Positions 184 to 51,850 of a DNA stretch of 64,000 nucleotides are shown here, piece after piece. A program made the translations under genes and the position numbers. The DNA is from Phoronis australis (lineage: Eukaryota; Animalia; Phoronida), in the NCBI GenBank assembly GCA_002633005.1, contig NMRA01000256.1, positions 176,068 through 240,067 of the forward strand, read 5' to 3'. The notes under the pieces were generated by a model. That model was not told the DNA's origin and did no database searches. It saw only the letters and a program-made list of their open reading frames with translations. Within the stretch, counting starts at the first letter, position 1, and every line of letters starts with the position of its first letter.

Positions 184-3100
184 TCACCATTCGTTGATGT
201 CAGGAAACGTCAGTAACCAATAACAAACAGAAAATACAATGAAAGATAAAGGAAAAAATAATCGGGAGTAAAAATCCACGTTTTGCTGAATAGTGTTCAA
301 TCGTGACAAGAACCAGTTGTACTCTCTTTCTTCAGGTGGTATTAAATACGAATTTCTCCTTGAATACCGGTGGTTTTCTTCTAGAATAAAAGGATGCGAA
401 TATCGCCGTGAAGCAGAGACAGTGCCGTCTTGTTTTGGAGTTGTGCTAAACGACTGTCTGCGAGCGGAGGCGGAGTCATCTCGAGTTATTACACCTTCCT
501 GAATGACTGACAGTCTAGGCATCTGTAGTATAATTAATGGGATTGTCATGCAATATACTTAACATTTCATAACATTTTGTCACAGGAGCTCAAAGCACCG
601 TCGAAAGAAAAATAAACATTGCTTTATTCGCAGGCACACGTGGAAGACATCGCCTTACCCATACCAAGAATAACGAAATGAAGAAACAAATTAATCAGAG
701 GAAGAATGATTTGCAAAAACATAATATATTATCTCCAGACGCTCCTAACGTCTGTAGATTGAATTTAAGAGAGTTTACTTACACAAACATTACATTTGCA
801 ATAAACGTCTTAGATACGTAGTGATAGAACATTCAAGAACGGGCATACCTCAAACGCCAAGTTATTGACCACTGATAACCGTTTCTTGTAGTCTCTTTGA
901 GTCTTCTTTTCTACTTTCTTGAAAAAATTGGCCGCGACAAAGAACTCAAAAAATGCGGCCAAAACGTACACTATACAAACGCTCCTCCATATATCGATAG
1001 CCTGAAAGCATTTAAAATGTAGTCGTAAAGTATTAGTGGACATAAATTGAACCTTGAGCGTGTGGTTTAATGAATAGGACCGTACCGAATACACACCGAC
1101 AGAACTCTCCTTTATCCCGGAGGTACGAAAACGTGTTGTTTTCATTGGCCTCACTTTTTAATCAAAGCACGTTTCCACAAGTCATGTCGGACACCGTCGA
1201 GACGTATGGCTATGGATATAGTCATCCGTTTAAAAGTATCATAAAAGAGAACGTATCTTCATTAATGGGAATTTCTGTTCGATTCAAAATAAACCCGACG
1301 AATTGCTTTGGTCACTTGCTCTGTCTTTTCTTGTCTTTGATTGATGTCGCCACTGAGAAACGTCACGCATCCAAGAATATTTGTTCTCAAGTTTATCCAA
1401 ATTTCTCCAGTTGAAGTTGCAGCCCGGAATAGGGAAATGATATTTTGTTGGCAATGAAAGAACGAATAGAGCAATGCAGCCGAGAAAAAAAAACTAAAAA
1501 ATACAACAACAAAGTATATTTCAAACTCCAATGGTGCGAAAAAGAGGCTTCAAAAGTGCTTCACGGACATTGCGGCATTGTGGGTAAATACAGCAAGATT
1601 CGAGTGTCGATAGTGTACAGTGTTGTAGTGAGGTGTAGGCGCACATAGGCGCAGCTAACCACCTTTTAGCATTTGAACGTAGCGCCTACGCACCGTAAGC
1701 TACGTTCAGTGCTCAAGGTGATGTGGTGGGCTTTGGGCGCCGACTTACCTCTAATTTTACCACTACAGCACTGATAGTGTATTTCGGGACGGGCCTAGGC
1801 CTACTTAGATATGACTTGCATTGTGAGAGAAAATTGTTTTAACTCGAGCAGACGCACTAGTATAAAACCAACTTATATACAATCTGTTAAGAATGAAAAA
1901 TCAACTCATTGTTAGTTTTTTAAGTGACTTGTCAAGACGAACTGCGTCGATATGGCACCTGACGCACCTAAGGTCGTGGTCTAATCTGTGTAGTCGGAAT
2001 AGAACTCGTCATTTTATGGGTAATTTTTCGTTTCGAATTTAAGATATAAAAGTGTCTATTAATCTGTACTCCAGTACGTTTTGGCTAATGCATATGTGTT
2101 TCTAGTCCAAGTGCGCATTTAATTAAATATGTATCAACTTGGAATTTCTAGTCCAGATTTAACCTAAATTCTAAAGTCGTCAAGTGCAATCTATGATTAG
2201 ACATATGTCCACGCGAGCCACTATGCACTCGAGCATAGAATGACGCTTATTTTGAGGTCACATCTAGGCTGTTGCACCCATTGCGGTTGTCTCCATTTGC
2301 TTTTTGTACAGCCCCTGTACATTACAACACTTTGAAACCAGCAGACAATTGATCTTTTTTACTTCACATTCGAACAGGCTGCGACTGTGATTCTTTCAAC
2401 GATGCTTTGGTGCAACAAGCCTTAGGGGCGGGAAGTGTCACGTCACCGCAGAATTTGTTTGTCCGCCAGTCACGTACGTTGTGGGCTTAGTGTGGTTCCG
2501 GTGAGAGATTGAATTTTAGAAACCTGTAGAATATCGGGTTCCTCTTCACTGTGAAAAACAGTAAACTGGTGTATACATAGTAAAACACGTCATAGGAGCC
2601 AGCTTTCTTTAATGAATTCGAGTCCCAATGGGACACACTGCTAGTCTCCCTAGAGTCAGGTCTCCAGCTACTCAGCTAGGTTTTAACTATATATTAATAA
2701 AGCATAAAAATGATTCCTGAGGTGATCAGTGAAATGAGTCCACCTGAGCGGCCTGGTCACGTCTGGTACTGTACGTTTACCTGACTGCCTGCAATCATCA
2801 TAACACGCCATCACTAATTTATTATTTACCATTGTGTATTCAACTTCAGGCAGCTGGTAAAGCGTCTTCTCCATCTGAACGACCATAATAAGCAGGGTAA
2901 AGACGCCGATAAGTGTTCGCACGGTCTCAGCCCTAACATCCAGAAAGAAGGTAGACCATGAGACGACGATAGTCATCGATGAGGGTATGTAGAGGTGTAA
3001 AAGGTAGTAGCCCATTTGCCGCTGGATACGAAAGTCTACGGCTATGCACGAGAAGGTACCTGACGAAAGAACAAGACCGCATTGAAATGATTGTTCATTA

Positions 3101-6100
3101 CATACAAGAGTTTTACAACAGTTCCCTCGAAGTCATTGTAGTATATTCTCCTTTTGTTAAGGAATCATAAATTTGACAATATCGAACAGAATTCAAAATG
3201 GCATCGACGTTTCTCGTTTTCAGTGAAGGAGGAGACCTTAATGTCGACCAGTCATCAGGTGGCGAGACCGGCTCACCTTGATGTGTTAAACATGTCGTGG
3301 AAATCGACATTTCCTGAGGCCGCTCAAAATTATTTCGGTAAAGAGACAATTCCCGAGCAAAGAAAGCAGAGACCAGTTATCATGAGCAGAAATGGTCACT
3401 TGACATTGTTTTTGATGCCGATTTTATAAGATGATGTCAAGCTTTCTTCGTCTGAAAAGGAACGTCTATACCAAATGATATTGATAGCGTTGTTTCGCGG
3501 GGAATGTGTCTTCCTTTTTGCTATATTTTAATAAATAAGACATGGTCACGTGACCAAATTAATGACAGACTGGTGTGAAGCCAAAAATGTCACCTTCATA
3601 AAATAAACACTTTAATCGATTTAAAGTTTATGTCGAACCAGGAACCAGCCTAACGCTCTGATGGCGGAACTAAATCCAACTCGCTACGTGGCAGAGTATA
3701 CTGAGACTATTTGACTGGAAATGTCACGCGGTTTGATTTAAGCGAACACTGTAAGAAAACGTCAAGATGCAAGGCCATTTGTTATACAATCACAAAAGCA
3801 CAACGGATATTGTTGTTTTATAGCTCTAGTCAAAGCTAACAACTCCAAGAAGTCTATCCCATTCAACAATAATCCCAAAATGATTTTTGGCCCTAAATTC
3901 TATAATATATTTTAAGGTTGTAAGTGATGTCGTTTAGAAAGGAGCCTTTCGCCGCTGATTAAGTTCAAATGATGATGAACCTCTTTGGGTTGAAAAACAT
4001 TGCCACGCTTATCTGGCCATTCTTCAATTGTTTCCTAATGAGTCCGCAGCTCAAATCACTGTCAATGCGGAAATGCCCCATTTTCGAATTTGCAATTTTA
4101 GGGCTGGCCAGCTGCAACAAAATCCGATGCGTCTTCTTGAGGCGCTGATGATTTCTATGTTCTTGTTGTGAACGGAAATCGATGCCTATCTAGGAACATG
4201 AATTCCAAAAGTCTGAGATTTCCACATACACTGTAGAGGGAGAGAAAGGGGGTGAGGTAGGGAGGGAGGTGGTGAGGGACGGAGACGGGGGGGAGAGGAA
4301 GGGAGGGAAAGAGAGAAAATAAATTTATTACGGTGACCATGCACTGTTACTTGAACATCCAGCTCACTGAACGTATTAGTTACTTTAAACAATATACAAG
4401 AACACCAGTGCACATACAATTTGATATGAAGTTCAAAATCTTTTAAGAAACTAAGTGAACAGAAAATTTTGTGGTGTATTAAGAGCACCTTCTGCACATA
4501 TCTAGAGGGATCATTAAAAAAAAATTTACATGTACATAAAATAGTAAGTTTGTCTTCAGAACTGAACAAATCGAAATCCGGGAGAATGAGTCTGATTTTA
4601 TCGACAAAATGGAAGTTAATACTGTTTATTGAAAGTAAAAATAAGAATACAGCCAATATACCACATCACGGAAATGAGTTCTCTGCTCATCTCACGGACA
4701 TATCCCCATGTAGATGGGTGTTTCGAAATAAAATCTGACCGGAAGAAAAATCAACCCTATGTATCATGTGCACCAGAATGCAATTACTAATTATTGGTTG
4801 GAAAGAGAATGTCCACAAATGTCAAAACCAATTATTTGGAAGTACCAACAAAGAGGCAACACGAGTGGTTTATGGTAACCAAGCAAACTAAGCCCAGAAT
4901 CTGCAAAATGGTTATAACATATCTTAGAATGCGTGTGTGGCCAGGTTATGGCTACCTTTCTGCTGCTAATAGATCTTTTCCTATTCCATATAGGCTGAAA
5001 TTTCAACAAAAAGAACTCAACAAAATAACTGCAACTATACCGTATACATAACACTTGGCACAACCTCCAATTGTTAAGTGACTGTGTTATTCAACACAAT
5101 AATTTTGTTCCCACTGTACATAAACTACACTGCCTCACCTTTTGGACTGGAACCAATGTTTACCTGTCGAGAAGCTATCAGTACAGTCGGTGAAGTTCGA
5201 ACGCTGGAGATCGAGTTGAAACCCTGACATGGTAATGTCAGAATTATATTCAAAGGCCCCTTTGTCAGAATCTTCAAAAAAGCCCCATTTAAGTATCACG
5301 TCTTGTACAGGATGACTATCTGAAAGATATCACAATTTAGTGGGACAACATGTAGCCCTTACCGACACAGAATTTAAAATTTAGACAGAGCCTTCAGAAG
5401 GCACAAGCCTATACCAAGGCGTTCTCTTTAGTCGTCAGGTTGTTCGATCACTTTCCTATTACTTCAGTGAAGTGATCAATGTTGGTTTCTTCTTTCTGTC
5501 AAGAAATGAAGTGCAATCGAAAGGTCTTTTACACAACCACCACACACTGAGAATTTCATTCATCACTTTTCATGACTTTTTAAACCTAAGCCGTGTTTTA
5601 AAACAAAGAGATTAGCACATAAAGAACAAAATAACATCATTTGAGGTAAAAGTTGCCAGATTTTCACGGTGATCTTGGAAATGATTAAAGTTGACATTGT
5701 TAGCCTGGCATTGTCCTTAGCAAACGTGGCGACAAGAATCAAGTTCATTCAGTGGACCTGAGACACTAGCGCTGCACTCGTGGCGAGAAATCTTCGTTAG
5801 GTCTAACCACTGTTCTGACCTTTGCAGCTCGCGCGAAGAAAATAGAGTGTGTCATGTTTGATAGCAATTTTGTGGACTAAATGGAAAGTGATTGCTCGAA
5901 TGGTAGTCAGTTGTTCTTAGAACTTGTTTTGCATGGGTAAACGTAACCCGGATACGGAAGTCCCGCCATTTTCAAATGATATCCTTGCTCAGTGTTGTAT
6001 TTCTGGCGCGAATCCAGATACACTTCAGACAAACTGAAATTGTCAAGTATCTTGTTTGGTAATGACATAAACTAAAATTCTGGATTCGTGTTTCCTTTTA

Positions 6101-9100
6101 TACACCGGGATAGTCGTGAAGTTGTGATTTCAGGTACTGCAAGCCCAAAATTTTGAAATTGGTGACTCTTTGGCATCTCAATTTTTCCCGTAGACCTAGC
6201 AAGTAGAAAACACAGCTTTGTTGAATTTCGTCATACTTGAGAAACCCCATCCAGCTAGTGTGCTTTCTCTCAGTTATGCCTTTTTCAGGTGTCTAGTTGA
6301 AATAGAGTGCAAACAGGAGCTTTCGTTGGCCTAGACTAGTGATAACGTCAAATCGGCCACTCGAACTACATGTACATGTATTGAACGGAATTAGTGAGTT
6401 CGATCCCATTAACTTCAACGTCACCGAAGAATCACTTCACTGACCGCCATTTTGCAAGTGTGCGTTAGGTTCCACAGCATCAGGCCTATTCGCAAATCAA
6501 GCTCGCCTTTCACTTCATAGCATAATTTTGCGAGGTCTTCCGTGGTATCGCCTTTTCTACAGGTTCTTGCGTCGCATATGGAACGCACCCCGGTATTGCC
6601 TATGAATAACCAAAGTGCAGCACGTAAACTCTCTAGCCCTGCGCCATTGTATTGTTATTGTTATTCGTAAGACTGATTTTTCTGGTTTGATGTTAAGTGA
6701 TAGACAATCATCTGCTGCTTTATAAACCTCTTAAACTACTGACACGTTGCTTATTTTACTGGCGTGGTAGCAGTGAACTGGCTGCGATCGAGGCTTGATC
6801 CGCTCACAAGACACCGGACTATCGCCTCATTTAAAGACAGGCTGCAAAATTCATTGCACATCCTCTCACTAGACCATTTCTCGTCTACGATATCAGTTGC
6901 ATAAACAAAATCTCTGCTGCTTCACCACGCGGTCAGATTGAGGTGCACTTCTATCCCTGGGCCTCAGCGATGTAATACCCAAATGAAACTGACAGAGCTC
7001 ACAATGAGTCAAATCGTTAACTTTTGTCCTGTGGTGTTCCGCAGTTTTATTGTGAAGTCACCCAATCCAGGACGCAGAGCTAAAATCACCCGCCAACATT
7101 TTGGCTTTGCATCATCTGGTGCACACTTATTAGTCCTGGAGTGCTAATACTAGATCTGAACATCTGATCCGTAGACTAACGCAGAGAACTTACTCTTCGT
7201 TGCATTGTCACGCACCATAACGACGCTATCAACATCGACGAAGACAAAACTCCTTCCCTAGGTTACATATGAACTTAGGTCTATACCAACGTGTTAAGCA
7301 AGAAGACCCTCGCCTCCATTTTCCAAACTATGAACTCACTGCTTGAGCAGCTCAGACGTATCGAAGAAACTCATGTGCATAACCGTCTCTCAGTAAAGCC
7401 ACCTCCTCCTTCGTCGCCGGACAAATCCATCGTGACAAGTAGACGCTACTGCCCGTCGCACTCGATTGGACCAATTGTTTACTAAAATTCCATTTATTCC
7501 GACGAATGGCAAATGCGCTTTTCTAGTGGCCCGTGATCGACAATGACACCGAAGAGCGCGCCTTGCAAGACACCACACCCTACGACCGACATTGTCCCCA
7601 TCCACTGTCGCCCTCACTGTCCATGTAGTCCAGTATCTTTATCTCGACACCTTTTTGGGCAAGTAGTCTTAAGGTTGATTTTTGACTTTTTTGCGACAGA
7701 AAATATATGATTAGTGCAGCAAGTGCTCGCTCGGTGGGCGCGACCGTCGACAGTATATCTACTCTATAGGTTGTTGGCGAAACTCGACTTTTGTTCGGAC
7801 GGGTCAAGCATTCTTTCGTTTTCGACTGCTTTGTTGTTGATTCTCTTAACGTAAACGCATTGATCACAACCCTGCACAGTAGTGTACATCTGATACACCC
7901 GTTACTATTGGAGCATCATTTGCAGCCGACGCCATGAAGTGTTTTCGACAACTCAGTTTGGTTATTCATTAAGGCACCTCTTCGTCTACAATGACTCGTA
8001 TTATCTTCGGAATGGACATCACCAGTTGTGCCTCTACAAACACTTATTGGGTGGATCTCACGCGGTTATCTGTGCCTATCCAACCTCAGGATTCAACCAC
8101 TACAGAATGATAAACTTCTCGAACACCATAGCTTATCTCTTAAGATGAGGCGCACCAAGAATCCCAACCATAACCAGAGAAGGTCATACAAGAGTGGTTA
8201 CATGAGTTGCTGTTTGACCATCTGGACCCTCACAGTGTCATTCCAGAGAAAGAACAAGAACTCGCAAGACTTCTCGAGTCGCTCAGTATTACAAGTGAAG
8301 CATGTGTGTGTACCTTCCTGAATGAGATTCTTGCGTCTGATTGCCTCACGGGTCGATTGAAACACTCACAACTAAATAGATAAAGCATGAAAGAGTTGAC
8401 GTAACAATGCAACTCGCGGTTCTTCTCAGATGGTAAGAAATATGGCCGCTAATCGAGAGATATTTGGTGTGATCTGGTAATGACTTGGTGAATTATAGTT
8501 CACGACAATAGACCAATATGACACGTGGATATATGTATGGAGTGTCATTTATTTCCACTTTCTTTACGATGAATCACTGAAACGAGCAGATAAATAAAAG
8601 AGTTGTTTAAAAATGTAATTTTGTAGTCGTGTATTGATCTGATAGGAAATACATGTATGGCTGAATCTGTCAAATTCATAACAGTACATGGGCTCTGGAA
8701 ATTGTCTGGCAAGCAATGCGGCCGCCGGACCGATATTTTTCATGAAGCATTTCGAGGTCTCTCAAATGCACCAAAAGATACTCGAATTCTCAAATTTTTT
8801 GGTGAAGGTCCCCAACCCCTCCCGTGCACTTCCCATATGCCAAAACCATATGAAAATGCTTCCGACGCCTCTGAATGTACCCTGCGTAATGTATTGGAGT
8901 CTAGGCTTTGTTACTTACAGCTCATAAAGGCAACGGGAAGTAAGTGCTTGTCTCCGGGAAAGTACCGGAAATTCAGATGACAAGACAATGTCATTGATAA
9001 CCTGAAATGAAAAAAGAGAGAAGTTGACAAAACATCCTTTTGATGTCTCATGATTAGGTTAAAAAGCACAGTCAGTTCTGGTCCGTGTACTATTTTGAAA

Positions 9101-12100
9101 ATCGTGGGTGTTCTTTTAGTTGCTCAGTTTTCAAAAACGAAAATCTACCTAAGACGAACTCTGACCAGTGTCGGTGGGGTGAAAGGATGACCAAAGATTG
9201 TCCTTTAAGGCAGCAGATTTCTACAGAATAGTGTCTGGAAATAGAATCTCGGAGTCAACACGGTGTCGTCCCGCGATTGCCGACCGAGTAGACTTGACAG
9301 TAACGCAGATGATCCATGACCATGCAACACGTCACTCGCCTGATAGCTCAACTTCATTACTATAGTTGTCAAGAAAAAATTATAACTTCTTGTATTTACA
9401 AGTCGACATTTGTAGCTGACAAGGTAATGCCAAAGACCACAGAATATTCAAAGTTTTACATTTAATAGTTTGCTATCGTTGCGTCTGAAGCGGCACCTCG
9501 ACAGGGTTTTAGCTCTGACGGGGGAGGGCAGCAAAAACAAGCGGCGATTACTGTTAGGCAAAGATGCCGTGCAGTTAGCGTTTTGTTTACATGATCCAGT
9601 GCCCTACCTGGTTGGAAGTATTATTATATTGACATATCAGAAGTCGCCGTTTTTCACACCTTGACGTGAATTAGCCTATGTGCTAGGCTTTCTTTCATTT
9701 GAGGCAGCTACGTGCGCTCGTATATAGCTCTTGGTCTCAGATTACTGATCCTCTGGTCACTTTAACCATGCATGCGGCAATAGTAGTGAAGTAATGTAAG
9801 CGGAACGGCAACAGGTCTGTATATCTTTTTTCTACTTTCACCATCATTTAGCAAATACAATGTCTCTCAGGGACTTTATGACGCCACAAACAGACACCTT
9901 TCCCTCTTAAAAACTTGAACACAATTTTTGCCTCAGCAATGATAGCATACCTTTGGCTGTGCGTTATCTGACCTCCCTTTTCCAACCAAATTGCTTCGTT
10001 GCTTTTGGTAACAACATGCCGTTTGCCATCAATCGCGTTGACGACAAATAAGTCTGGCAACCACAGTTTACGAATGAATTCTGGTCCTAAGTTAAACGAC
10101 CTGTTGCCGAATTGGAATAAATCGGGCCAGTCCAATCTGTGGTCAACCCATCTTTGTCTGAGGTAGATGTCTAGAGAATATTGCTGTGAAAACAAGCACA
10201 AAAAATGCATACTATTTGAGACAATTTCGACTTTAACTATACCTTGGACACATAAAGCTTCCGACGCCGATCCGAGGAAAATGGTATGGTGTAACATCCA
10301 GTCAAGGCATCCGGGTGCTGGCACCGGGGCAAAGGCTGAACGCTTTACTAAGTTGCTGATTCGATAAAAATCGCCCGATTACTGAAGCATTGGAATGAAG
10401 GAATGGACAGGATCGACCGAACGATATGTGACCAAGGCATAACATATGAGCCTGAAATAAGCGGACATTCATCTGGCGTATTTGACAAGGGACAGTTGTC
10501 ACCCAGATTCGGGGAAAAGTTAAGGAAAATTCTGGCAACTCAAGCAACACAGCACCCAATGAAAAAAACGGAAAAGACATTTCAGAAGATGCATCGATCA
10601 CAAAATCAAAGAAAGAGGAGAATGAACATCAACATGAAAACTCTGCTGTTAGGTATTCATATATAGGAAAAGAAATTTTCAATAGAGTTGATTAAAAACT
10701 CTTACCACTGGCGCCCCCATACTACACCCCGTGAAGTCTTACTACTTTGCCACTGAACCTGAACTCCGAATTTCAACCACTTTTACCACAAACACGTGAC
10801 CAATATATAAATAGAAACTAGATCTGCATTAAAGTCAATTGGACTAAAAGTTTCCGTGGTAATAAATTTTGTGCGTCTGAAGAGTTTTTGTTGGGAATGT
10901 GTGAATTGGAAATAGCTCTTTCCACGGAATATGAAGCGCAGCTGCACTTAGGCACTCTTAGCAAAGACAATTTTAGTGCGAGTGAACGCACGGCCCTTTT
11001 CCTACGAGTCGCATGTGCTCAAATGATGGCATGGCAACAAATCGCATAAAGCTATGCCGATACTCTCTGACCACAGGACTGCAAGAACATTTTTAAAAAA
11101 CTAACACTTTTAATACATAGACAACAGTGGGTTAAACAATAACAATAGCAATAATAATAGTTATAGTAATAGTAATATTAAGAATGTTAGTAATATTAAT
11201 AGTAATCGTAATAATAATATCGATGTATGTTTTTTTAAAAACATACATCATATTAGTCATATTAACTTAAAAGTTAATATGACTATCATCAAAACATCGA
11301 ATCAGGTTTAGGTTACAGGGCAGAGTTCCGTAGATCAAGGTAGGGAAGCATTGGGCATGGAAAACAAAGATATCCTACCTGGGTACATTGGAACGTGGGA
11401 ATTTTGGATGAGAAGAATTTAGGTACAGAGAATACCGTTATGGAATCGAAAAAGATATCCAAAGCATTTCAGAACAAAACAGAAAAATATCTTTCGTTCT
11501 CGATACTGAAGTTAAAATGATTGTTTGTTACGTTAATGAAAATACTATGAGTTTGCTGAGTAATTCTGGAAATAACATACAACCAAATCCAAGCAAGCTT
11601 TACAACTTTGTAAAGGTCATCATGGATCAAATCTTCCGCTGTGGAAGTGTGCCTAAACGTAATATACTTCAGATGTTGACAAAATGTGGTAGTCGGGAAA
11701 ACTATTTTACTGTAATTTCCAGATAGATTTATAATTTCTTGCATTTAAAATCACACAATATTTTCATGCAAGGTACCATAGCATTAAGACATATGCGGTC
11801 TGAAAAACCAAGACTATCAGATAGGATTTAAAATCAGATAACAGTGTTGACAGCAATCGAAAGAAAGTTTGCTTGAAAGTGGAACTTGACTGCACATGAT
11901 CGTTTTTGTCATTCTGGTGTAATTCTTGAAGACGTACATTTTATACGTACCATTTTTACTTCTTGCAAATTGGAGATGGAATTTATATAGGCGTTGATTT
12001 TAATCTCCAGTGGTCGAGAACCTGTAAGAAGAAACTATTGTTACTACCGGCGTCTGAGTCGTAGTAACGCCACTTTGTACGAATGGTTTGTTGTGTTTAC

Positions 12101-12886
12101 TGAACATCCGAAGAAAGTACAGCAACCTTTCCATTGTTGCCCCATTTGGATAGTAAAACAAAAAATTGATTGTGCTGCAAATACTGTTGCGAATAAACAT
12201 CTGGTTCAACAAAAAGCACAACTACATTCGAACAAAAGATTTGAAATTTTACTGTCACAGTTTTTGTGGACATTTATGAAAATGTCTTGATTTTCTTTAA
12301 ACTATGTATTTTAGAAAGCTAAATTCTACACCCGAAAAGAATAACACAATGATTGGTTTGTGAATAGACAACATTATTTGTCTTTATTTTTAAAGGCATT
12401 CTTTCCCTCCTTTGAAAAGTCGTAAACAGTATTTGACAGCAAACCAATCTAACTTAAACTTATTGAAAAATGATGTTGTTTCAACGCGTAATCAAGTGTT
12501 TTTAAATGGAATATTGATTTTTCAAAATAAATTTTTAGGTTATGGTGGTGCAACAACAAATTGGCTGACACATTTGAACGACGTTGAACTTCACCGGTAG
12601 GAGATACTCCTATTTTGTGATGTCTCTCGACTGAGTTAAACTCTACGCTCTATAGTGGTGAAAATATAGGGAAAAGATGTGTTTAAGATTTTATATTGTA
12701 TCTACAAATTAAGCACGTAAGCTTACCGTTAACAGGAAAAGGGACCAATCTTTTGTCGTATCCAGAAAGAAGTTGGCCCATTATTTCATGCTGTTGTATA
12801 CTCGTGTTCATAGAGCTGCAATTAGATGCATGTGAAGACCTATTGTACAAGTAAAACACTACACTCATTAGCAGAATCGCTGCCAT
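184..12886 (-). CDS. Pentameric ligand-gated ion channel subunit, glycine/GABA/GluCl-receptor-like, 8 coding exons, about 474 aa
   Basis: Phase-consistent GT-AG exons: 12727-12886 (signal peptide, LLSGYDKRLVP; in-frame stops upstream of the ATG), 11951-12021 (PLEIKINAYINSISNLQEVKM), 9951-10183 (loop D DIYLRQRW, loop A WLPDLFVVN), 8919-9001 (Cys-loop SCHLNFRYFPGD), 5164-5319 (loops B/F/C, CTDSFSTG), 2830-3059 (TFSC, M1 GYYLLHLYIPS, M2), 849-1001 (M3 AIDIW), 184-522 (M4 VDFYSRLFFPLSF..YW, TGA). Sum 1425 nt. A candidate non-coding exon donor (CAG|GTAAGA) lies at 13338. Confidence 0.93.
1618..1773. mobile_element. hAT-type MITE (156 bp)
   Basis: Terminal inverted repeats CAGTGTTGTAGTG / CACTACAGCACTG flanked by an exact 8-bp target-site duplication ATAGTGTA (1610-1617 and 1774-1781). 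Confidence 0.75.
4330..5080 (-). mobile_element. Possible highly decayed non-LTR retrotransposon 3' fragment
   Basis: Fragmentary ORFs whose composition resembles the LINE remnant at 16.8-18.3 kb; no intact motif. Confidence 0.25.
6760..8340 (+). mobile_element. Degenerate Ty3/Gypsy-like LTR retrotransposon (gag and protease remnants) in an intron of the channel gene
   Basis: Frameshifted peptides LTMSQIVNFCPVVFRSFIVK..RQHFGFASSGAHLL, VTHHNDAINIDEDKTPSL, KTLASIFQTMNSLLEQLR and VVGETRLLF..FVVDSLNVNALI resemble gag/protease regions of marine-invertebrate Gypsy elements as I recall them. PBS-like TGGCGTGGTAGCAG at 6760. No intact RT or paired LTR seen. Confidence 0.6.
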
Positions 12887-13278: not shown

Positions 13279-14055
13279 TTATCGCGAAACTCATTTAGCA
13301 CATTTTTGGATCTCAAATTAAAATCAAACAGTCTTACCTGGCGTCCACGGCAACCAAGTAAGAAAAGAACATAGCTGAAAATCGGAAAATACTCATTCTA
13401 AAATCAGGTTTCAAAATTGTAGTTTCGATATGAAAGTACTGAGGCCGACCGCAGACTGATTGTATCTGCCTGACCATGACGTCTTGGACATTGCGTAAAT
13501 AAGTAGTTATGTAAACTATGTGAATGGTATACCAGCATACGTGTACACACAGCTCTAGAAAGTACTCTGATTGCAAGTGCACGCATCACGTTAGAATTAG
13601 AATCTGTTGGCTGAGTTCGTAATTCGTCGATTGCACGCATCAGTTATCTTGCGGACTTTCGTCCACTCTGCCGCAAACTCCATAGACAAAATGAAAAGTT
13701 TTGTCGTTTCATCTTAAAAGCGTTACACATGATCACAGAAACTATATCTTGTACCATATTTTTGACTCTTTCACTTCCACCGAAACGGGGAGCGAGATTC
13801 TGATAAAACATGGAAAAGCCGCATAACTGACACTTTTTAGCACAAAACTAACACAGCTCCTTATGAAGTCATGTGGGTTCTGGATAACACATCATTTCAA
13901 GTAGGTTTTGGTGGCCTACATCAGTTGGTGTAAAGTTTGGACGCTACATGAATTCATGCAGGTTGTGCTCATCTACTCAGTTCATGTGGGTTCTGAACAT
14001 TGCCTCACTTCATGTGGGCCCTGTACACTACATCACTTCATGAGGTTTACAACGC

Positions 14056-14959: not shown

Positions 14960-16337
14960 TCAAATCCATTCGAAAACGGGAACATGCCATCGCTTTCTTT
15001 ATAGGAAGCTATTTACCAAATTTCAATGAGATCTGTCAAGGAACTTCAGAGAAACAAAGGAAAATGGAAAAAACAAAATTGCAACTAGGGGCCACAGCTT
15101 TCCTTGGATCCGCTTGAAAGTCGTCGTCGTCTGTTGCTAGCTTAATTTAATAAATATCCTGCAATGGGTTAAGGAGATACAGCTATGCACTGAAAACAAA
15201 ACAGAAATACCTCTAGGAAGTGCCAGAGTAATCGTAGTCGTCATCGTCAACCGTGCTCTTCACACTGAGAATATATATGCCAATTTTCAAAATCATACTT
15301 AGAGTGGTTTGGCTGACAGAGAGGCGGATGCCAAAACCAGACTCAAAAGCAGCAAAAATGGCCACAAGGTGGCGCAAAATACCTCTATTCCATCCGAAAA
15401 CGGGAGGATAGTGTCAACTCACCAACAGATGCCTATATTCCAAATTTTATGAAAATCCGTTGAGGACCTTTGAAGATGCAGATGTGAACGGAAAAAACTA
15501 AAATTGCCACTAAGGGTCACACCGGCATTCAGATCCGTCCGAATGTCGTCCGTTATCAACATCATATAAACAAACGGGAGGATAGCGTCATCTCACTAAT
15601 AGATGCCGATATATCAAATTTTATGAAAATACGTTTAGGAACTTCGAAGATACAGAGGTAATCGTAAAAGCTATAATTGCCACTAGGGACACACCGGTAT
15701 TCAGATCCGTCCGAAAGTCGTCGTCGTCCGTTTTCAACATCATATAAACACACTTGCCAACTTTAATAAAGATCCTCCAAACGGTTTAAGAGATACAGTC
15801 ATGGGAGCAAAGAAAACAAAACTGCCACTAGGAGGCGCCACAGTACTCAGTCTTCGAAAATTCATCGTCAGACGTCCTCTGCATAGCAAGACCGTGCATG
15901 CCAATTTTCACAATCATCCTTAGAGCGGTTTGGTTGATAGAGGTGTGGACGCCAAAAAACAAACTCGAACACAGTAAAAATGGCCACAAGGTGGTGCAAA
16001 CTAAGTCGAATCCATCCGAAAACGGGAGGATAACGTCATCTCACTTACAGATGCCTATACGTCAATTTTTATGAAAAATACTTTGAGGAACTTTGAAGAT
16101 ACAGCGGTAAATGTAAAAAACTAAAATTGCCACTAGGGGGCACACCGGTAATCGAATCTGTCCGAAAGTTCGCTCATGCCGTCCCATTCTTTGAAGGAAC
16201 ACATGTGCAAAATTTCCTGAACATACGACAAAGAATTTTGGAGAGCAGCGCACGCCGGACATCGGACGCTAGACGGACGCCGGACGAACGGGGATGATGA
16301 CAAAATGCATCCACATATAACTATGTGGGCACATAAT
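14960..16337 (+). mobile_element. Helentron/HINE (DINE-1-like) non-autonomous element with internal 130-170 bp tandem subunits
   Basis: Repeated subunits containing TTGCCACTAGGGG.., AAATTTTATGAAAATCCG and GGAGATACAG, followed by a (GGAC)-rich tract and a terminal hairpin ATGCATCCACATATAACTATGTGGGCACAT. Same family at 24.8-25.2, 40-42.6 and 62.0-62.8 kb. The superfamily assignment is inferred from this architecture. Confidence 0.6.
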
Positions 16338-16829
16338 AAAGGAAATCATTTTAATATATACAGGAAGGGCACTGAGCAAGGCACTCTCTTCTGTGTTTTT
16401 CTTCCTTCTCCTCTCTCTCTTTGATCTACACCATGAATAACCTTTTTTCTCTGGACACATAAACATGTTCTCTCTACCGTTTGAGNATAATGAGGTTTGG
16501 CTGAAGGTCCGCCCACTTTTTATAAATTTGAAAAATTAATAGTAAAATAACGAGAGTATGTACATGGCTGTAATTTACGAAAAGAGTTAATTTTAGTGAT
16601 ATCTTTCGATTGGCAAAGCTCAATTTGTGATCTAAGCAGGCGAAAGTAAAGGAAATAGTGACTTTAATATATACAGGAAGGGCACTGAGCAAGGCACTCT
16701 CTTCTGTGTTTTTCTTCCTTCCCCTCTCTCTCTTTGATCTACACCATGAATAACCTTTTTTCTCTGGACACATAAACATGTTCTCTCTACCGTTTGAGCT
16801 ATGCCACGAGACACTCTCATCACTATTTA

Positions 16830-18305
16830 TTTTGCTCAAGAGGCCATCGGCCCACAGGACATAACTCAACATAGATACAATAGAATACACATAAGTATTT
16901 GTCTGGTTACAGAAGCGTGATACACAAACTTAATCAAAATTTTCAGCACATAGAGATCAGGCATTCTGATTAACCTCACAAAGGAACGATTGGCTTGGTC
17001 CAATAAAAGTTAGGCACCAATCTCATTCTCAAATTATTGCAGAAGGGACATACATATAAAAGTGAAATTAATCTCTTACGAAATTTTTAGTATAGCTTTC
17101 TTTACATAAAGAATATTTACATAGATTTTTATCAACAGATAGATGTCTTCCCACCTCGACCAACAGCCTACGACATGAACATTGGAACCTTGTATAGGAG
17201 GTAATTTGAGTGCAACATAGGTTTCCAAATTAAACGACGTTTTGAAGAGGAAGTATGTACAAAAGTTTGAATTGTTTTGCACGTCTGTATTCCACTCTTG
17301 CAAAAAAGCAACCCTTAATTTTTTGTTTAAAGGTTTGTAAAAATAATTCTTCGCACCCAAATCCTTGCTCAAGCCACACAAAACCAAAACCATATCTATT
17401 TAACAGTGCCTTAACAAAATATGGCCCATGTAGATCGTCCCGCCTCGTCTATCTAATTTCACAAGCCAACTTTCATATACCAACTTAGAGTTACTTTAAT
17501 CAATATTTGGTTAACTTTAAAAATTATTTGTCAAAAAGCAGGAATCTCCCGAGTCCACCCAAACCGGCACTATTACTACAGCTTCTGTCAACACCCAGCA
17601 GACTTTTACAAAATGTGATGTGAAAATACAGCGGTCCTCTTTGAATCCTCACACTTCGTCACCATAACTAAGGATTGGGAAAACCATTTTGTCAAAAACG
17701 TCAAAGACAACTGCTGGTGGAAGTTTGTCACGTTTGCGCTGAAACTTTTTAATCATTAAAACTGCTTTTTGCTTGGGTTGCCAATGTCTAGATAGCCTGT
17801 GACCACAAATTTTGGGGGTAAAACATACAACGAGATATAAAACGAAGACACTGTAAAATTTCCACCACCAAAGTGTCATTTTTCTTCATTGCGCAATGGC
17901 CCACCTCGTCTGAAAACGACAATTGTTGTCTTTGACAAATTTAAACTCAATAAATGACAATACTTAATATGTAAAGCATTTATGTGGCGCTGGAGTTTTA
18001 TGGCTGTATCAGCACAGCCGACCATATCATCGATCTGCATACGTCAAGACACTTAGCGCGGGACCGTCTTCCCTCTTAATACAATACCGACATTTTCTTT
18101 GATAAGGTAGCTAACAAACTCATCAAGGTATATAACAAATAGAAATGGGCTCCACATACACCCTTCACGTGTTCCAATGAGGTCATCAAGTAATTCAGTA
18201 GGGTCACCATCTGTTCTCACTCGAAGCTCTTAGTTTATTGTACATACTTTTCAAAATTGTCAGAACATTGGTATGTAAATCAATTTTTTGTAACCTCTAC
18301 CATAG
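16830..18305 (-). mobile_element. Decayed non-LTR retrotransposon (LINE) reverse transcriptase, 3' half
   Basis: Broken frames give IGTREGCMWSPFLFVIYLDEF (RT Q-G-x-x-S-P motif), DDMVGCADTAIKLQRHINAL and FDKMVFPILSYGDEV; many stops and frameshifts. Confidence 0.8.
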
Positions 18306-24400: not shown

Positions 24401-27400
24401 ACGGTAGTTGTAGAGGCAGAAGCCGTGCACATACCAAGTCCACGTCAACGATCTCTTATAGAGTTGCTGGACGCAAGTTTGGCGAATAAGACGGTTAAAA
24501 TTACAATCAAGATTTTTGATCCGGGTACAACCAAGCCCCAAACCTCGTGTCCTAGCATACTCTCAAATCGCAGAAAAATAACAGGTGTCCGCATGGGAGT
24601 CTAAAACACTGGCAATCAAATACCAATAACCTCAACCATTTTATGGAAAAAAAGAAGATTCTGTGGAATCTCGCTCGCACAGTCTTGTCTAGTTTCAATT
24701 TCAAAAGATTAAAATTCAGCCAAAAATGGCAAAAACAAGGATTCAGCAACTTCAAAGTTCATCGTAGATACTTAGGCAGGGTCAAAAAAAATGTCACTTG
24801 GGAGAATGTCAGCCAATCAGATTCCCTAGAAAATCAACGTCAGATGTATTCTCCTCACTCTAGATGTATATCTCGTCAAATATACAATGATCCTTCACCA
24901 AACTTGAGGCAGTTGTAAAAATGTCACTAGGGAGCAATGTGATATTCACTGGTTCATCAGAAAACCAATGCCAGACATGTAGACCAATGGCCATTGATTT
25001 ACGAACTTAAGATTTCCACTAATAGTTGAAGGTGGCTCAGCAACATCCGGATTCATCCGAAATTCGTCATCTCTTATCATGTTCGCAGAAACGTGCCTGA
25101 CAGATTCCACGAAGGGGTTTAGGAGATACGGCTACAGACGCCGAACGCCCGGACGCTGAACAAAGATCATGTGACTACAAGATGTGTCCGCGTACATGGT
25201 ACATGCACGTGGGAGCATAAAAATCTCAGTTCAATATTTGTAAATAAAGACAAAATTTAATTATAAAGTAAAGCATTCATGTAGAATGGTGCCTCAGACC
25301 AGACCAAAGGAGCATTCTCTGTGCCGGTTAGTTGCATTTCACTAGATTTTTTCTCGCTGTGAAACATTTATTTAACTCGACCCATGACTGCATTATGTAG
25401 ACCCAAAACACTCGCGAGAAAATTATTGTGATCACTTTCTTGGGTTGTAAGGTATCACAATAAGTTGCAGACCTGCGTGATCTCGTGTTTTCGCGCGTTT
25501 CTTGCGTCTGCGACACACACGTTCAATTTACAACCCTGTCACCATCCAAGGTCTCCCGACTTCGGTAGACTACCAAGCCAGGATTCCAACTATGTGTTGT
25601 TCGGCCAGTGTATGGCTACACTTCGTATTCAGGTCAAAGTACTTTTGATCCAGTCATTTTCACAAGCAGGTTATGAAAAGGATAATGTTGTTAAGGCGTA
25701 CTTCGCAGCCCCAATTAATTTAAACAAAATTATTTCACAAGGTCTTTCAGTAAAACTTCAATGCACATTTCTGACATTCATCTCCAACAATCCTTTAAAA
25801 GGATACCAGACCCGGGTTTAGCCTTTTAATAGATACTAAAAACGAATTTACCATCCAGTTCTCTAGAACAAAGTAATGTTTGGTAATCCACGACAACCCT
25901 CAAAAGTTTGGAGGAAAGTTTGAAAACCCCTTTCAAAGTCTGCTAAACGGGCAAGCGTGACTTACGCTTTTAGCGAGTTACAAGACAACTGTGGGAAGAG
26001 TTAAAGACCACCCACCAAGGATCATAATGTCCAATTTGTGAGCTAGTGGTATGAGCTTTCAGTTAATTCCTGCTTTTGTCTGGTACGTTTGACGCCAAAG
26101 TTGCATTAACAGGTGACCGGGGAGAGCGAGGACTGGTTGAAATCATCACAGCAGGGTTTAGTATCCTTTTAACAAGTTCATTCAGGGCCCACTTGAAACT
26201 ACTAAGGAGAATAGCTGCTATTGTATCATGAAATACAACGAGAAATACAAACCTGGCACTTGATAGACATTTTCCCCCATGTCCCCTCTCTCGTTCAGAT
26301 ACTTCATGTACATACTTTCTTGTTTCAGCCGACGACCTTGTTTCCTTTTATTCAAGACTAAACAAACGGTTAAGGCCACAAAAGCCAAGATGAGGGCAAG
26401 TGCACCAAATCCGACTCCCATTCCAATTTTGAAAGCCTCTCTATCGGTAGATTTCCACTTCAAGAACCCCACGTTCACCTTGATATTTCCAACTTGCACC
26501 TGGAGAAAAGCATGTTTCCAAAAGGTCATTTTGACCTGTCATAGACTGCAAAGATCTGTGCAATTTGTGTGTAGTCTATCAGAGGTTCCTCTCTCTCCCA
26601 CACACATATAAAAAGAAGAATAGTTTGCTAGAGGTCTTACTATGCGCAAAATTTGTTGAATAAATCCCCGACAATGACGTCAGATTATCGGACGCCACAG
26701 TCGTTTACTAAGTTGTAGCAAATATCGTGTGCAAACACGCTTGAATGGACAGTCGCTCAAATTAAGCAGGATCGTTATCATGAAATTAAATTTTGCATAA
26801 AAGAATAGAAGAATTTAGAGAACCCTGAGCGAGTTGGCAGATGAAGTGCTCTTTCCAACGCATACATGTAATTGTTTATACCATACAAAAATTACGTGTA
26901 TTTGTGTTGATTATTTTAACTGCTAAAATATGCATGTTACCAGAGTCAAATTTGAAAATTGTGTCTATTTTATGATACTGTTTCTTTAATCCGCCTCTTT
27001 CAGAACACAACGTAATCCACAATATCAGCAAGTAAGAATAACCCAACATAGCAGACCAATGTGCCTGTGCTGCACCTTTGGATTTTCAAGCCTGTTAGCT
27101 GTAAGCGCGTTCGGGTCTTACTCGTTAGCGCGTTAAGCGAACGATTCCTAAACCAATGAACATTCATATCCACAAGATTACGTCACAAATTGCTGGTTGA
27201 GAATGGGTTGTTTACCAAGAATTGTACAATAGAAAAAAATGCAGCCACTTGACCTTTTCATTTATTATGCAGGGCGAACCTGATTCAAATTTTGACAGAC
27301 GCAGTGGAATCCGATAGTGTTGCTGTGTAATTGCTGACATGTTTTGTTGAGGTAACATTTGACATAAATAATGCATTCTGGGAAATGATGCCAGAGAAGA

Positions 27401-30400: not shown

Positions 30401-33400
30401 AGTGGGGGCTATACCCTTTGGTGCGCCGCCCATGGTAATACAGCCTTATAGAGATACCAGAGCGTCAGTGATATGGGATTCGGTGACACTCGGACGCGTA
30501 TTCTAAGAATAAATCTGTCAGCCAAGTTTTGCATGATTTGGAGTTTATATAAGAGCGTTACTTTAGTAGCGCAAGATACATGACATGGCCAGGTTGTGAC
30601 CTGATCGATTTCGTGTTCATCATGTGGTCACACGTGAATCTACAATGACGAACTCAAAGTATGCGCACTGAAAAGTCAAAAGGTTGTACCTCAAGAATGT
30701 CTCCAAAGGCTCTATGCGTTGAATAACTGGGTCTCCTTTATATGTAAACTCAAAAGTGGTACTGGTGGTAAAATTGTGAGGATATACGTCATAAGTAAGT
30801 TTAACATCCACAACTTCTTCTTGTTCATTCTTGCCTGTCCGACATACAACTGTCGTGTCGTTTCTGTAAAATACAATGCCACACAATAAATACAACTTGA
30901 ATACACTACAATGTACTGCTCCGCGCCTTCACTACATTACGATAGAAGTACAGTAGGCACCTGAATACTTGCAGATTTCCCATAGTGTGCAAGAGAAGTG
31001 GAAGAAAAACGTAACCGTCAAAATGTCTAACGGGACTTTCAGTTTTTGATGACGGATTTGAATAAACATTATGCTTGCAACGCAGCTGAAGGTAAGACAT
31101 ATCAAAAAGCCACCTGAGAGCTGAAGTGATGCGATATTTTTCTCGTCTAGTGGTCCAGTGGTGCGCGAGGGGGAGGGTCTGTCCATGACTCAAAACTGTA
31201 CAACAATTAATATCATCATGAAAGACTCGTAAGCAATTGCCGCTAAGTAGCGCAGAGACTTTGATAAAAATATTTTAGAACCGCTTGCGTGGTCTTTCGA
31301 CTTCTCTGGAAGGGATGCAGGCGTGAGCTTATTTTTAAACAGTTTCAAAACGATTTGGCACAGGCCAAAACCAACTACGCTATTTTCATTGGTTTCATCA
31401 AACGTATGGCCGTATCATTTTTAAAATTTCAGCAAGCAAAATGCCACGAAGTCTTCTTTTTCTAAACTTGACAATAACGTTTACTAAATGTACATATTCT
31501 AATTCATTACCTTTTCTCAATAGAGCAGAATTTGTCACCAACCAGAACCTTTACGTAGTGTAGATAAACTCCTCTTAATATGACCACAGTGCCACCAGCG
31601 AGCGGGCCGTAGGAAGGTCCAATAGAGGTCAAATGTGGCGACTGAAATGTGTATTTGACAGGTGTTATATGCAATTCAGTACTTTGAGTTTGAGGAGAAG
31701 GATGCGAACGACAACTTAATTTACGGGTTGTTTATTTCACTTTACAATGGGTTGTGTGATGCCAGTCATTCGAAACAGAATGAAACCAATGAAAACAGAG
31801 CACACAATTTAAATTAAAAGGCGAAGGCAACCTTTTCTCATGTCACTTTTAGCAAAAATAAGGTATTTTGATTATCCCAGGCATATTTTTCACGTAATTA
31901 CAGCTTTTCGTAATTTAATTAATTTCTCTTCCTCTACTCCGGAAGTGACGTTTTGGGAGGCAAGAATTTCGTGCCAATTTCCTTTCATACAGTCAGACTG
32001 TGAGAGCTGTCAAGTCAGTCATTGTTCTACCTCGGATGTGATAAGTTTGGTCGTCGTTTGCTTTTGTTTACAAGTCAGTCAACATGCCACGCTGTTGCTG
32101 CGTACCAGGATGTACTCATTATCGTTATACAACGCTTTGGGTACCTTCCATCGCTTTCCGAAGGATGACACACTTCGTCGCCGTACTTGGCTAGCTCGTT
32201 CGTGTGAAGAATGCAGCGCTACCCATTCACGCAACGTACAAAGCAGTGGCGAGCATTTTCAGCCGTTAGATTACGATAGTGATATGTACCCTGAATTGAT
32301 GAAGGTCCCTGCGAAACAACGCCTGAAGAAGGGTTCCATAACGTCGCTGTTGATTCCCGGCAGTGCCCCGTTGCCACCCCCGAGTAGTGCGTTTTTAAAG
32401 CGAGAAGCCTCGCAAGCTGTGGCCACCATAAACAGTGACTGGAGGCACTTCATCTACTGTCACCCATGCCTCCGAACGTACCCCATAGCGTGCAATTCCA
32501 AGAACTAGCAGTGATTCCCCGTGTGCTGTTGTCTCTAGCCTAGAGTCTGTAAGCAGCCCTGCAGTGATGTTGAGTAATGGAAGTGAATACACGCCCAGTT
32601 TGACACCCAGTGAAAAGGACAGTTCGTCATACAATGAACAGATTGGTGACCCTAAGTTTGATAAGTTTGTTGTGGACTTGTATAGGAGCTCTTTAGAAGC
32701 TGCCACGTGTGTGACGAGGGAATCGCACGGTGGGGTGCTCAAGTCACATGATCCACTGGGAGTGTGTCGCGGGACACTCGGGCAAGTGGGACAGTTCTTC
32801 CTCTGTACGTGAGACGATAATGAGTACATCTCGGTAGGCAGCAACAGCGTGGCATGTTGACTGACTCGTAAACAAAAGCAAACGACGACCGAACTTATCA
32901 CAACCGAGGTAGAACAATGACTCGACTGCTCTCACAGTCAGACTGTATGAAAAGAAATTGGCGCGAAATTTTTGCCTCCTAAAACGTCACTTCCGGAGTA
33001 GACGACGAGTAATTAATTAAATTACGAAAGCTGTAAATAAGTGAAAAATATGTCTGGGATAATCAACGAACCCTATTTTTGCTAAAAATGGCATGAAAAA
33101 CGGTTGCCTTCGTCTTTAAACAGAGTGTCTGTTCCAGTCTAAATACGAAGTAAAGGCACAGAGGTGTAAAACATGTTCGACTTTAAATGCCATGTCAGAG
33201 TAACTCAAAATTCGACAGCACTTTTAATAACTTAGACATAAAACAGACTACGTACACAATCGGAAGGCAGCGACCCGGAGCTTGAACTTCGGCAGTTACA
33301 TTGCCCGGTCGTGACGTCACAAATCCTCGAGCTGTTTTTCACAACGCCGGCTGGGTGACACCGGCACGGCACACATGGTGAAAAGTCTTGCACTGCAGAT

Positions 33401-51229: not shown

Positions 51230-51850
51230 ACATCATAAATTTAATAAGTTTACAGACATGCTCCATTCCTGACAGAACTTATTTAAAGCACACAGTAGTT
51301 TTTGCAGTTAACTGGAGCGTAAGCGCACAAGGTCGTATCGTCGGCATAACTGTATGACAATACTTTTACATCAGAGACATTTTGACTTAAAAATACCATC
51401 GTCATTACTAGAGTGGATACATTCTATAAATTCATTCAAATACAATGTAAACAAAAGAGGGCCTAACAAACAACCTTGCCTAGTGCCAATATTGAAATCA
51501 AAAGCAGCAATTTTACCAGTCCGCGCTCTCACAAACGTCCGAAGTTTGCTATACGTTGATTGTAAAGTTTTTAAAAAATCACCTTGAACTCCAACATTTT
51601 TTAATCTGAGCCAAAGCAACTGATGGGGAATATTGTTTAATGCTTTAGAAAAATCAGTGAATGCACAGTAGAAACGATGTCCTTGTTTGCTTATGTACTT
51701 TTGAACTATAGTTGACAATGTAAAAATTTGGTCGACAGTGCTGTATACCTTTCGGAACCTTGCTTGACATTCAAACAATTTAATATTCTCCATGGCCCAA
51801 TCAGTAAGGCGCACATTCAAATTTTTGTAAAAAAGTTTCCAATCACTGGC
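51230..51850 (-). mobile_element. Decayed LINE reverse transcriptase fragment
   Basis: ORF 51371-51904: QARFRKVYSTVDQIFTL, AFTDFSKA, IGTRQGCLLGPLLFTLYLNEF (non-LTR RT motifs); truncated. Probably the same clade as 16.8-18.3 kb. Confidence 0.85.

What the first reader, a model, noticed from the sequence alone, without database searches (positions are those of the whole stretch)
8919..9001. Cys-loop receptor missing the second cysteine of the Cys-loop
Seen: the 83-nt exon encodes RLSMTLS-C-HLNFRYFPGDKHL-L-PVAFMSY. Position 15 of the C-x13-C signature is Leu (CTT, 8938-8940), two substitutions from a Cys codon, so it is unlikely to be a base-call error. The FPxD motif and the GlyR/GluCl-type loop C pair (CTDSFSTGTFSC) are retained, and the gene is otherwise intact. 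Established knowledge: the disulfide is near-universal in animal pLGICs; Cys-less pLGICs are mostly prokaryotic or a separate clade. Inference: secondary loss within the GlyR-like branch, leaving a free thiol or one paired with the extra N-terminal Cys in ASNCSS.
Basis: partly seen in the sequence, partly recalled or inferred. Interest (0 to 1): 0.72.

Follow-up and report, generated by a model that had tools for sequence, protein, structure and literature searches.

The report
Cys-loop receptor missing its disulfide
An intact animal gene for a glycine-receptor-like ion-channel subunit has leucine in place of one of the two cysteines that name this receptor family and also has a rebuilt pore lining, so it likely folds without the family's hallmark disulfide and likely works as an atypical partner subunit rather than as an ordinary chloride channel.

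Summary
Confirmed. The 83-nt exon (9001-8919, minus strand) is exon 5 of an intact 9-exon, 478-aa pentameric ligand-gated channel gene. Cys-loop position 1 is Cys166; position 15 is Leu180 (CTT, 8940-8938). The exon is unchanged in contigs of three DNA runs (one sample) and no alternative exon exists in the window. None of 179 homologue alignments shows Cys paired with a non-Cys residue. No orthologue was found; the best full-length relatives are about 33% identical glycine-receptor-like proteins. The protein keeps all seven universal pLGIC residues, the amino-acid-binding motif and the loop C cysteine pair, and its divergence is too large for pseudogene decay. Best reading: a functional, fast-evolving subunit that secondarily lost the disulfide, with Leu filling the core as in bacterial channels. 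Pairing with the N-terminal Cys27 is unlikely. Secondary loss is already published for nematode, spider and tunicate subunits, but the four published sequences I read lost both cysteines. Expression evidence is a trace; no fold or function was tested. The scan had not noted this on other DNA.

The parts
13338..13396 (-). Exon 1 (coding part, 59 nt): start codon and predicted signal peptide, likely cleaved after Ala19
   Evidence: gene model; signal peptide judged by eye from the hydrophobic core and V-D-A site (inference)
12727..12839 (-). Exon 2 (113 nt): N-terminus and helix alpha-1; extra Cys27 at 12820-12818 inside an N-glycosylation sequon (NCS)
11951..12021 (-). Exon 3 (71 nt): beta-1 and beta1-beta2 loop; loop G has Asn, not the Arg of ecdysozoan GluCls
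9951..10183 (-). Exon 4 (233 nt): loops D (Arg90), A and E (Ser157)
   Evidence: (PF02931 E 6.7e-11)
8919..9001 (-). Exon 5 (83 nt): Cys-loop with Cys166 at position 1, FPGD, Leu180 at position 15; start of loop B (Met185 where GlyR has Glu)
8938..8940 (-). CTT (Leu180) at the position of the second Cys-loop cysteine
5164..5319 (-). Exon 6 (156 nt): loop B Tyr187, beta-8/9, first loop C cysteine (Cys232), Thr238
2830..3059 (-). Exon 7 (230 nt): Phe241, Cys243, pre-M1 Arg252, M1 Pro264, M2 with rebuilt pore (Thr-2', Val-1', Arg0', Leu2', Phe6', Leu9', Val13'), M2-M3 Pro309 and Tyr313
849..1001 (-). Exon 8 (153 nt): M3 with conserved Asp318 and Cys324 and an unusual Arg321; start of the cytoplasmic loop
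184..522 (-). Exon 9 (coding part, 339 nt with stop): cytoplasmic loop and M4
   Evidence: PF02932 E 0.012

Best explanation
The gene encodes an intact, fast-evolving glycine-receptor-like channel subunit that carries Leu at the second Cys-loop position and a rebuilt pore lining, and it likely folds without the Cys-loop disulfide and likely serves as an accessory subunit of a mixed pentamer. Shown: intact reading frame, Cys166/Leu180, kept gating-interface and ligand-site residues, changed M2. Inferred, step by step: (1) the ancestor had the C-x13-C bond and Cys at position 15 changed to Leu in two steps; (2) Leu packs into the beta-sandwich core where the disulfide sat, as the hydrophobic residue at this position does in bacterial pLGICs, leaving Cys166 as a buried free thiol; (3) the loop still couples binding to the pore through Phe173-Pro174-Asp176, Arg252, Pro309 and Tyr313; (4) the pocket would bind a small amino acid other than glutamate; (5) five copies of Leu2', Phe6', Leu9', Val13' without the PAR motif would make a poor chloride pore, so the subunit more likely co-assembles with conventional subunits, whose own disulfides would also ease folding, and alters conductance or selectivity. 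About 0.75 for steps 1-3, 0.5 for the whole chain.
For: Intact 9-exon ORF; codon unchanged in three run assemblies. All 7 residues of the superfamily-wide conserved set in Table 1 of PMC4795631 are kept (Phe173, Pro174, Asp176, Phe220, Arg252, Pro264, Pro309). The M2-M3 Tyr that H-bonds to the Cys-loop backbone in anion-type receptors (PMC13232294 passages) is kept (Tyr313). The five-residue amino-acid-agonist motif of PMC4338433 is complete (Arg90, Ser157, Tyr187, Thr238, Phe241), with neither the loop G nor the loop A Arg needed for glutamate. It keeps 42 of 56 conserved columns, like other long-branch family members (45/57, 43/56, 45/58, 44/59). In a neutral-decay simulation the gene stayed intact in 1 of 2000 runs at 5% divergence, where only 11% of conserved residues had changed, against the 25% actually lost. 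Bacterial pLGICs typically have a hydrophobic residue at the second Cys position (PMC4795631). Val-1', Phe6', Lys17', Glu24' and Arg321 occur in 0 of 26-30 aligned representatives. Depth bins of RNA run X6 (0.09, 0.05, 0.34, 0.04) fit one read pair spliced across exons 6-7-8 (predicted 0.09, 0.05, 0.33-0.36, 0.04).
Against: No orthologue or paralogue was found, so dN/dS and conservation of Leu180 are untested. All DNA evidence is from one sample. RNA depth over exon 5 is zero in X5, X6 and X7 (about a fifth of each run read) and in X5 and X8 at 80% likeness; the spliced pair is my inference from bin depths, a single molecule, not a listed joint. Both faces of the ligand site are kept, which fits a homomer as well as an accessory subunit. 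A C138S change at the first Cys-loop Cys is listed among human startle-disease GlyR alleles (PMC6110938 table), so conventional receptors tolerate loss badly. Tree position is unresolved. No structure was predicted. No partner subunit is known: the window holds no other pLGIC gene and the genome was not available.
Confidence: 0.5

Rival explanations
1. The subunit is functional and disulfide-free but works as a homopentamer with a new job: a cation-permeable or weakly conducting sensor, like the cation channels that arose inside the anion family.
For: Both faces of the ligand site are kept. PAR is lost and 13' is Val; there are acidic residues at -3', 16', 24' and 26'. C. elegans LGC-50 lacks the PAR proline and is cation selective (PMC8536830 passages). 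G4' and the M3 EF motif that PMC13003095 links to anion channels are kept, so the selectivity is open either way.
Against: No Glu at -1' or -2'; Arg0' is kept. Leu2' plus Phe6' in five copies would narrow and dewet the pore (inference; Phe6' as a mark of the obligate-heteromer GlyR beta subunit is recalled, not from a call).
Confidence: 0.25
2. The gene is under relaxed selection or recently dead, and Leu180 is a damaging change that has not yet been followed by a stop or frameshift.
For: Longest branch in the tree; 14 of 56 conserved columns lost; Arg in M3; only trace RNA. Intactness is still likely at low divergence (0.37 at 0.5%, 0.14 at 1%).
Against: Two specified hits in one codon within 2% divergence have a chance below 0.0004 (d squared, my arithmetic). 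Most lost columns are conservative swaps (V-I, M-L, L-F, W-F, L-I), and all 7 universal residues and 16 splice dinucleotides survive.
Confidence: 0.15
3. Leu180 is a private allele of the sequenced individual, or an assembly artefact; the species normally has Cys.
For: All DNA runs that hold the stretch are one sample, and contigs drop rare variants.
Against: Two base changes are needed. Contigs of X1 and X2 differ from the window at 9419 while X3 matches it, which suggests two haplotypes were sampled, yet all carry CTT. Neighbouring loop residues (Gly175, His178) are also unusual.
Confidence: 0.06
4. Cys166 forms a replacement disulfide with the extra N-terminal Cys27.
For: After the loop C pair is set aside, Cys27 and Cys166 are the only two extracellular cysteines, an even number.
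Against: Cys27 lies about 8 residues before helix alpha-1, at the membrane-distal top of the domain and inside a glycosylation sequon; Cys166 lies on beta-6 at the membrane interface with its side chain in the core (established pLGIC topology, recalled; not modelled here).
Confidence: 0.04

Closest known systems
Glycine receptor alpha subunits and invertebrate GlyR-like/GluCl subunits
   Same: Best solved-structure matches for exon 7 (GlyR alpha 58-62 bits, GluCl 53, GABA-A 42 or less); best full-length match an amphioxus GlyR-like protein, 32.5%; loop C Cys pair, amino-acid-agonist motif, M2-M3 Tyr, M3 Cys.
   Different: No second Cys-loop Cys; no PAR; Leu2', Phe6', Val13'; Met for the loop B Glu; Arg in M3; only about one third identical.
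Secondary Cys-less anionic-clade pLGICs (filarial nematode Q70GM3 group, spider A0A087T721, Oikopleura E4XNB9; Jaiteh et al. 2016, PMC4795631)
   Same: Loss of the Cys-loop bond inside the anionic clade with the Pro-loop motif kept; the four sequences read (Q70GM3, E1G692, A0A087T721, E4XNB9) keep a loop C Cys pair; the nematode and spider ones lack PAR.
   Different: Those four lost both cysteines, and the nematode loop is shifted by one residue; this gene keeps the first Cys and the loop length. None is reported as functionally characterised beyond an RNAi test. No kinship was tested.
Primary Cys-less pLGICs (GLIC, ELIC, protist, lophotrochozoan and schistosome clade; PMC4795631, PMC9874803)
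   Same: FPxD kept with a hydrophobic residue at the second Cys position; no PAR motif.
   Different: They lack both cysteines and form a separate clade; this gene has GlyR-type loop C, M1 and M3 motifs.
C. elegans LGC-50 (and EXP-1, LGC-35): cation channels derived from the anion family
   Same: Loss of the -2' proline of PAR (PMC8536830).
   Different: Different lineage and ligand site; their Cys-loops were not examined here; selectivity of this gene is untested.

Membership tests
pLGIC (Pro-loop) superfamily | [quoted passage not shown] | tested here: met
   Exon 4 PF02931 E 6.7e-11; exon 7 PF02932 E 1e-4; exon 9 PF02932 E 0.012 (single exons); full-length blastp to GlyRs 220-236 bits
pLGIC (Pro-loop) superfamily | F/YPxD, beta-9 aromatic, pre-M1 Arg, M1 Pro, M2-M3 Pro (Table 1 of PMC4795631) | tested here: met
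   7 of 7 kept
pLGIC (Pro-loop) superfamily | Assembles as a pentamer and gates an ion pore | not testable with these tools
   Needs expression; the folding tools take only unspliced window translations
Cys-loop receptor in the strict sense | Two cysteines 13 residues apart forming a disulfide | tested here: not met
   Cys166 and Leu180
GlyR/GluCl-type anionic receptors | Loop C cysteine pair | tested here: met
   Cys232 and Cys243 align with the pair of GlyR-like homologues
GlyR/GluCl-type anionic receptors | Amino-acid-agonist motif (loop D Arg, loop E Ser, loop B aromatic, loop C Thr and aromatic) | tested here: met
   Arg90, Ser157, Tyr187, Thr238, Phe241
GlyR/GluCl-type anionic receptors | PAR anion-selectivity motif at -2' to 0' | tested here: not met
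   Thr-Val-Arg
GlyR/GluCl-type anionic receptors | Phylogenetic placement in the clade | tested here: inconclusive
   Split from GABA-type rows at SH-aLRT 94 / bootstrap 86 (24 rows, 5 long or partial rows left out); AU p 0.55 for grouping with GABA-type rows, 0.28 for GlyR proper
Glutamate-gated chloride channels | Loop G Arg (ecdysozoan) or loop A Arg (lophotrochozoan) | tested here: not met
   Loop G Asn, loop A Val
Primary Cys-less eukaryotic clade | Both loop cysteines absent; groups apart from Cys-loop receptors | tested here: not met
   Cys166 is present; no member of that clade was in my tree, so only the motif half was tested

The most novel reading that the evidence does not exclude
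A natural half-way state in the loss of the Cys-loop bond: an animal receptor that folds and gates with one free cysteine and a leucine, coupled to a rebuilt, non-chloride pore, i.e. a glycine-receptor descendant turned into a cation-permeable or non-conducting chemical sensor, with Cys166 possibly acting as a redox-sensitive switch at the gating interface.
Probability: 0.2. Interest if true: 0.72.

Novelty: new variant of a known kind. Interest (0 to 1): 0.45.

Why it matters
Why animals keep the Cys-loop disulfide when bacterial channels fold without it is described as partly unexplained, and it has been proposed that extra hydrophobic core residues could replace it (PMC4795631, section 'Pro-loop receptors'). 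This gene is a natural single-site test of that idea in a glycine-receptor-like background: one cysteine kept, the other replaced by Leu, all gating residues intact. Adding the Cys back, or moving Leu into a vertebrate GlyR, would separate the folding role of the bond from a gating role. The rebuilt pore makes it a candidate for a new channel type as well. It is one gene in one individual with no function shown, and loss of both cysteines already has precedent, which limits the surprise.

Tried and rejected
Alternative or duplicated Cys-loop exon: none in the 64 kb. RNA editing as a rescue: CTT cannot become a Cys codon by A-to-I or C-to-U changes (reasoning). Compensating indels around the codon: not needed, the loop aligns without gaps to all 28 homologues. 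Orthologue searches led nowhere: exon 4 and exon 7 word searches gave 4 and 18 candidates, 0 scored; the full HMMER scan gave 598 hits, the best 150 at most 49% identical over the exon; an alignment search returned 2410 hits, the 120 listed being vertebrate and amphioxus GlyR/GABA-A proteins; the metagenome scan gave 6 loci, none close (not read further). Paralogues at 80% DNA identity over exons 4-5: none in contigs of X2 and X3. No RNA holder listed by the run index. No whole genome held. The protein atlas gave no answer. First tree joined the gene to a bed-bug subunit, a long-branch pairing; that row was dropped. The GlyR C198/C209 mutants cited in PMC4795631 are not used as evidence: C138 is the Cys-loop Cys, so by my numbering those are the loop C pair. 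Two papers were not held. Literature searches for a natural single-Cys loss found no such report, but the library is partial and I read only 3 of 201 parts of the PMC4795631 alignment, which may hold such cases. Earlier scan notes: none relevant.

Full report
Observation. The exon at 9001-8919 (minus strand, 83 nt, AG/GT bounded) encodes a Cys-loop whose first position is Cys and whose fifteenth is Leu, codon CTT at 8940-8938. CTT is two substitutions from TGT and three from TGC. It is exon 5 of a nine-exon gene (13396 to 184) with eight GT-AG introns and an uninterrupted 478-codon frame; cysteines are at 27, 166, 232, 243, 324 and 466. The organism was not identified and no genome was held; the lack of any close match in libraries that contain vertebrate proteins suggests an invertebrate (inference).

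Is it real? Contigs from three DNA runs cover the exon. X1: one 11.4-kb contig, 6 differences from the window, the 5 listed all outside the exon. X2 and X3: no difference in the exon. All are one sample and may be the window's source. X1 and X2 differ from the window at 9419 while X3 agrees with it, which suggests that both haplotypes were sampled and both carry CTT (inference). A motif scan, blastn and a profile search of all six frames found no second Cys-loop exon and no second pLGIC gene in the window.

How unusual? Of 179 homologue alignments covering both positions, 175 have Cys at both and 4 are misaligned fragments; none pairs Cys with another residue. About 120 of the proteins are vertebrate or amphioxus receptors; among the diverse 50%-identity representatives alone, 42 of 44 have Cys at position 15 and 2 have a gap. 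This is a small, similarity-biased sample, not a census.

Relatives. No orthologue was found. The best full-length matches are GlyR-like proteins of amphioxus, vertebrates, an acoel and a chiton at 30-33% identity. Exon 7 matches solved GlyR alpha subunits best, then GluCl and an invertebrate GABA receptor, then GABA-A. In a 24-row tree (322 columns; 5 long or partial rows of 29 left out) the gene is the longest branch and falls on the GlyR/GluCl side of a split with 94/86 support, outside GlyR proper; AU tests reject neither alternative placement. The assignment to the GlyR/GluCl type therefore rests on motifs: the loop C Cys pair, the pre-M1 and M3 motifs.

Is it alive? It keeps 42 of 56 columns conserved in at least 85% of 28 homologues, the same share as other long-branch members, and all seven residues that PMC4795631 lists as conserved across the superfamily. 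In a simulation of neutral decay (my assumptions: indels at a tenth of the substitution rate, 32 splice bases) the gene survived in 1 of 2000 runs at 5% divergence and 0 of 2000 at 10%, where 11% and 22% of conserved residues had changed; the gene has lost 25%. So most divergence arose under selection for an open frame; a very recent death is not excluded. RNA: about a fifth of three 2026 runs was laid; exon 5 had zero depth, and other exons only traces. The X6 depth values fit one read pair spliced across exons 6, 7 and 8, and X5 has the depth of one pair on the last exon. This is weak evidence of very low, spliced expression; it does not show exon 5 in a transcript.

What else changed. The ligand pocket keeps the complete amino-acid-agonist motif of PMC4338433 (passages) but has neither Arg needed for glutamate and has Met at the start of loop B. 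The gating interface keeps Asp176, Arg252, Pro309 and Tyr313; the last is the Tyr shown to H-bond to the Cys-loop backbone in GABA-A and glycine receptors (PMC13232294 passages). The pore is rebuilt: Thr-Val-Arg for Pro-Ala-Arg, Leu2', Phe6', Leu9', Val13', Glu16', Lys17'; Val-1', Phe6', Lys17', Glu24' and an Arg in M3 were seen in none of 26-30 aligned representatives.

Mechanism. Shown: the sequence features above. Inferred: the ancestral disulfide was lost by Cys-to-Leu; Leu fills the core, as the hydrophobic residue at this position does in bacterial channels (PMC4795631 section 7); Cys166 stays a buried thiol; coupling runs through the kept Pro-loop residues; the bulky pore makes an accessory role in a mixed pentamer somewhat likelier than a homomeric channel (0.5 against 0.25). 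Decay (0.15), a private allele (0.06) and a Cys27-Cys166 bond (0.04) are less likely. No structure was predicted, because the folding tools take only unspliced window translations, so packing and distances rest on recalled pLGIC topology.

Compared with what is known. PMC4795631 (passages, sections 7 and 11, supplement 1 parts 146, 148 and 199 of 201) reports a primary Cys-less clade and a few secondary losses inside the anionic clade (two nematode groups, two spider sequences, one Oikopleura). The four secondary cases I read in full (Q70GM3, E1G692, A0A087T721, E4XNB9) lack both cysteines and keep a loop C pair. PMC9874803 (first third of the text) describes schistosome channels lacking both cysteines and PAR. 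PMC8536830 and PMC13003095 (passages) show that PAR loss can go with cation selectivity but does not predict it reliably. PMC6110938 (passages) lists C138S as a startle-disease allele. PMC4938653, PMC4569296 and PMC2064938 (passages) held nothing on single-Cys loss. Searches found no report of a natural loss of only the second cysteine; the library lacks most subscription papers.

Verdict. Real feature, a new variant of a known kind: a pLGIC by every superfamily test run, not a Cys-loop receptor in the strict sense, GlyR-like by motif, with an atypical pore. Interest 0.45: a neat natural test of the role of the disulfide, held back by published precedent for secondary loss, a single individual, no orthologue and no function.

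Noticed in passing
window about 18460-47500, minus strand: A large receptor tyrosine kinase gene upstream on the same strand: MET-like kinase exons (best solved match HGF receptor; PF07714), a transmembrane exon near 26221-26538, IPT/TIG exons (30623-31731) and laminin-EGF repeats (33235-33618). A signal-peptide-like exon at 46987-47526 may be its start. Laminin-EGF plus IPT plus MET-like kinase, with no Sema domain seen, is an unusual layout; no gene model was built.
   Followed up: partly
window 984-986, minus strand: Arg321 in the first turn of M3 where homologues have Met or Leu (0 of 27 have Arg); it could pair with the acidic residues at M2 16', 24' or 26'.
   Followed up: partly
window 37597-37836 (-) and 31813-32505 (+): THAP-domain fragments (PF05485, E 1e-5 and 0.004) inside the kinase gene's introns, probably DNA-transposon remnants.
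   Followed up: partly
window 51374-52009, minus strand: Reverse-transcriptase fragment (PF00078, E 1.5e-12), LINE-like; similar-looking open frames at 17079-17885 gave no Pfam hit for the piece tested.
   Followed up: partly
window about 1570-1775 and 2620-2715: Short, very high-copy repeats in intron 7 (summed contig depth over 10,000) that are abundant in all three RNA runs from other loci; SINE- or MITE-like.
   Followed up: no
window about 16180-16830: A local duplication: two copies of an open stretch of about 45 codons on either side of the single N at 16486; may be a tandem repeat or an assembly join.
   Followed up: no
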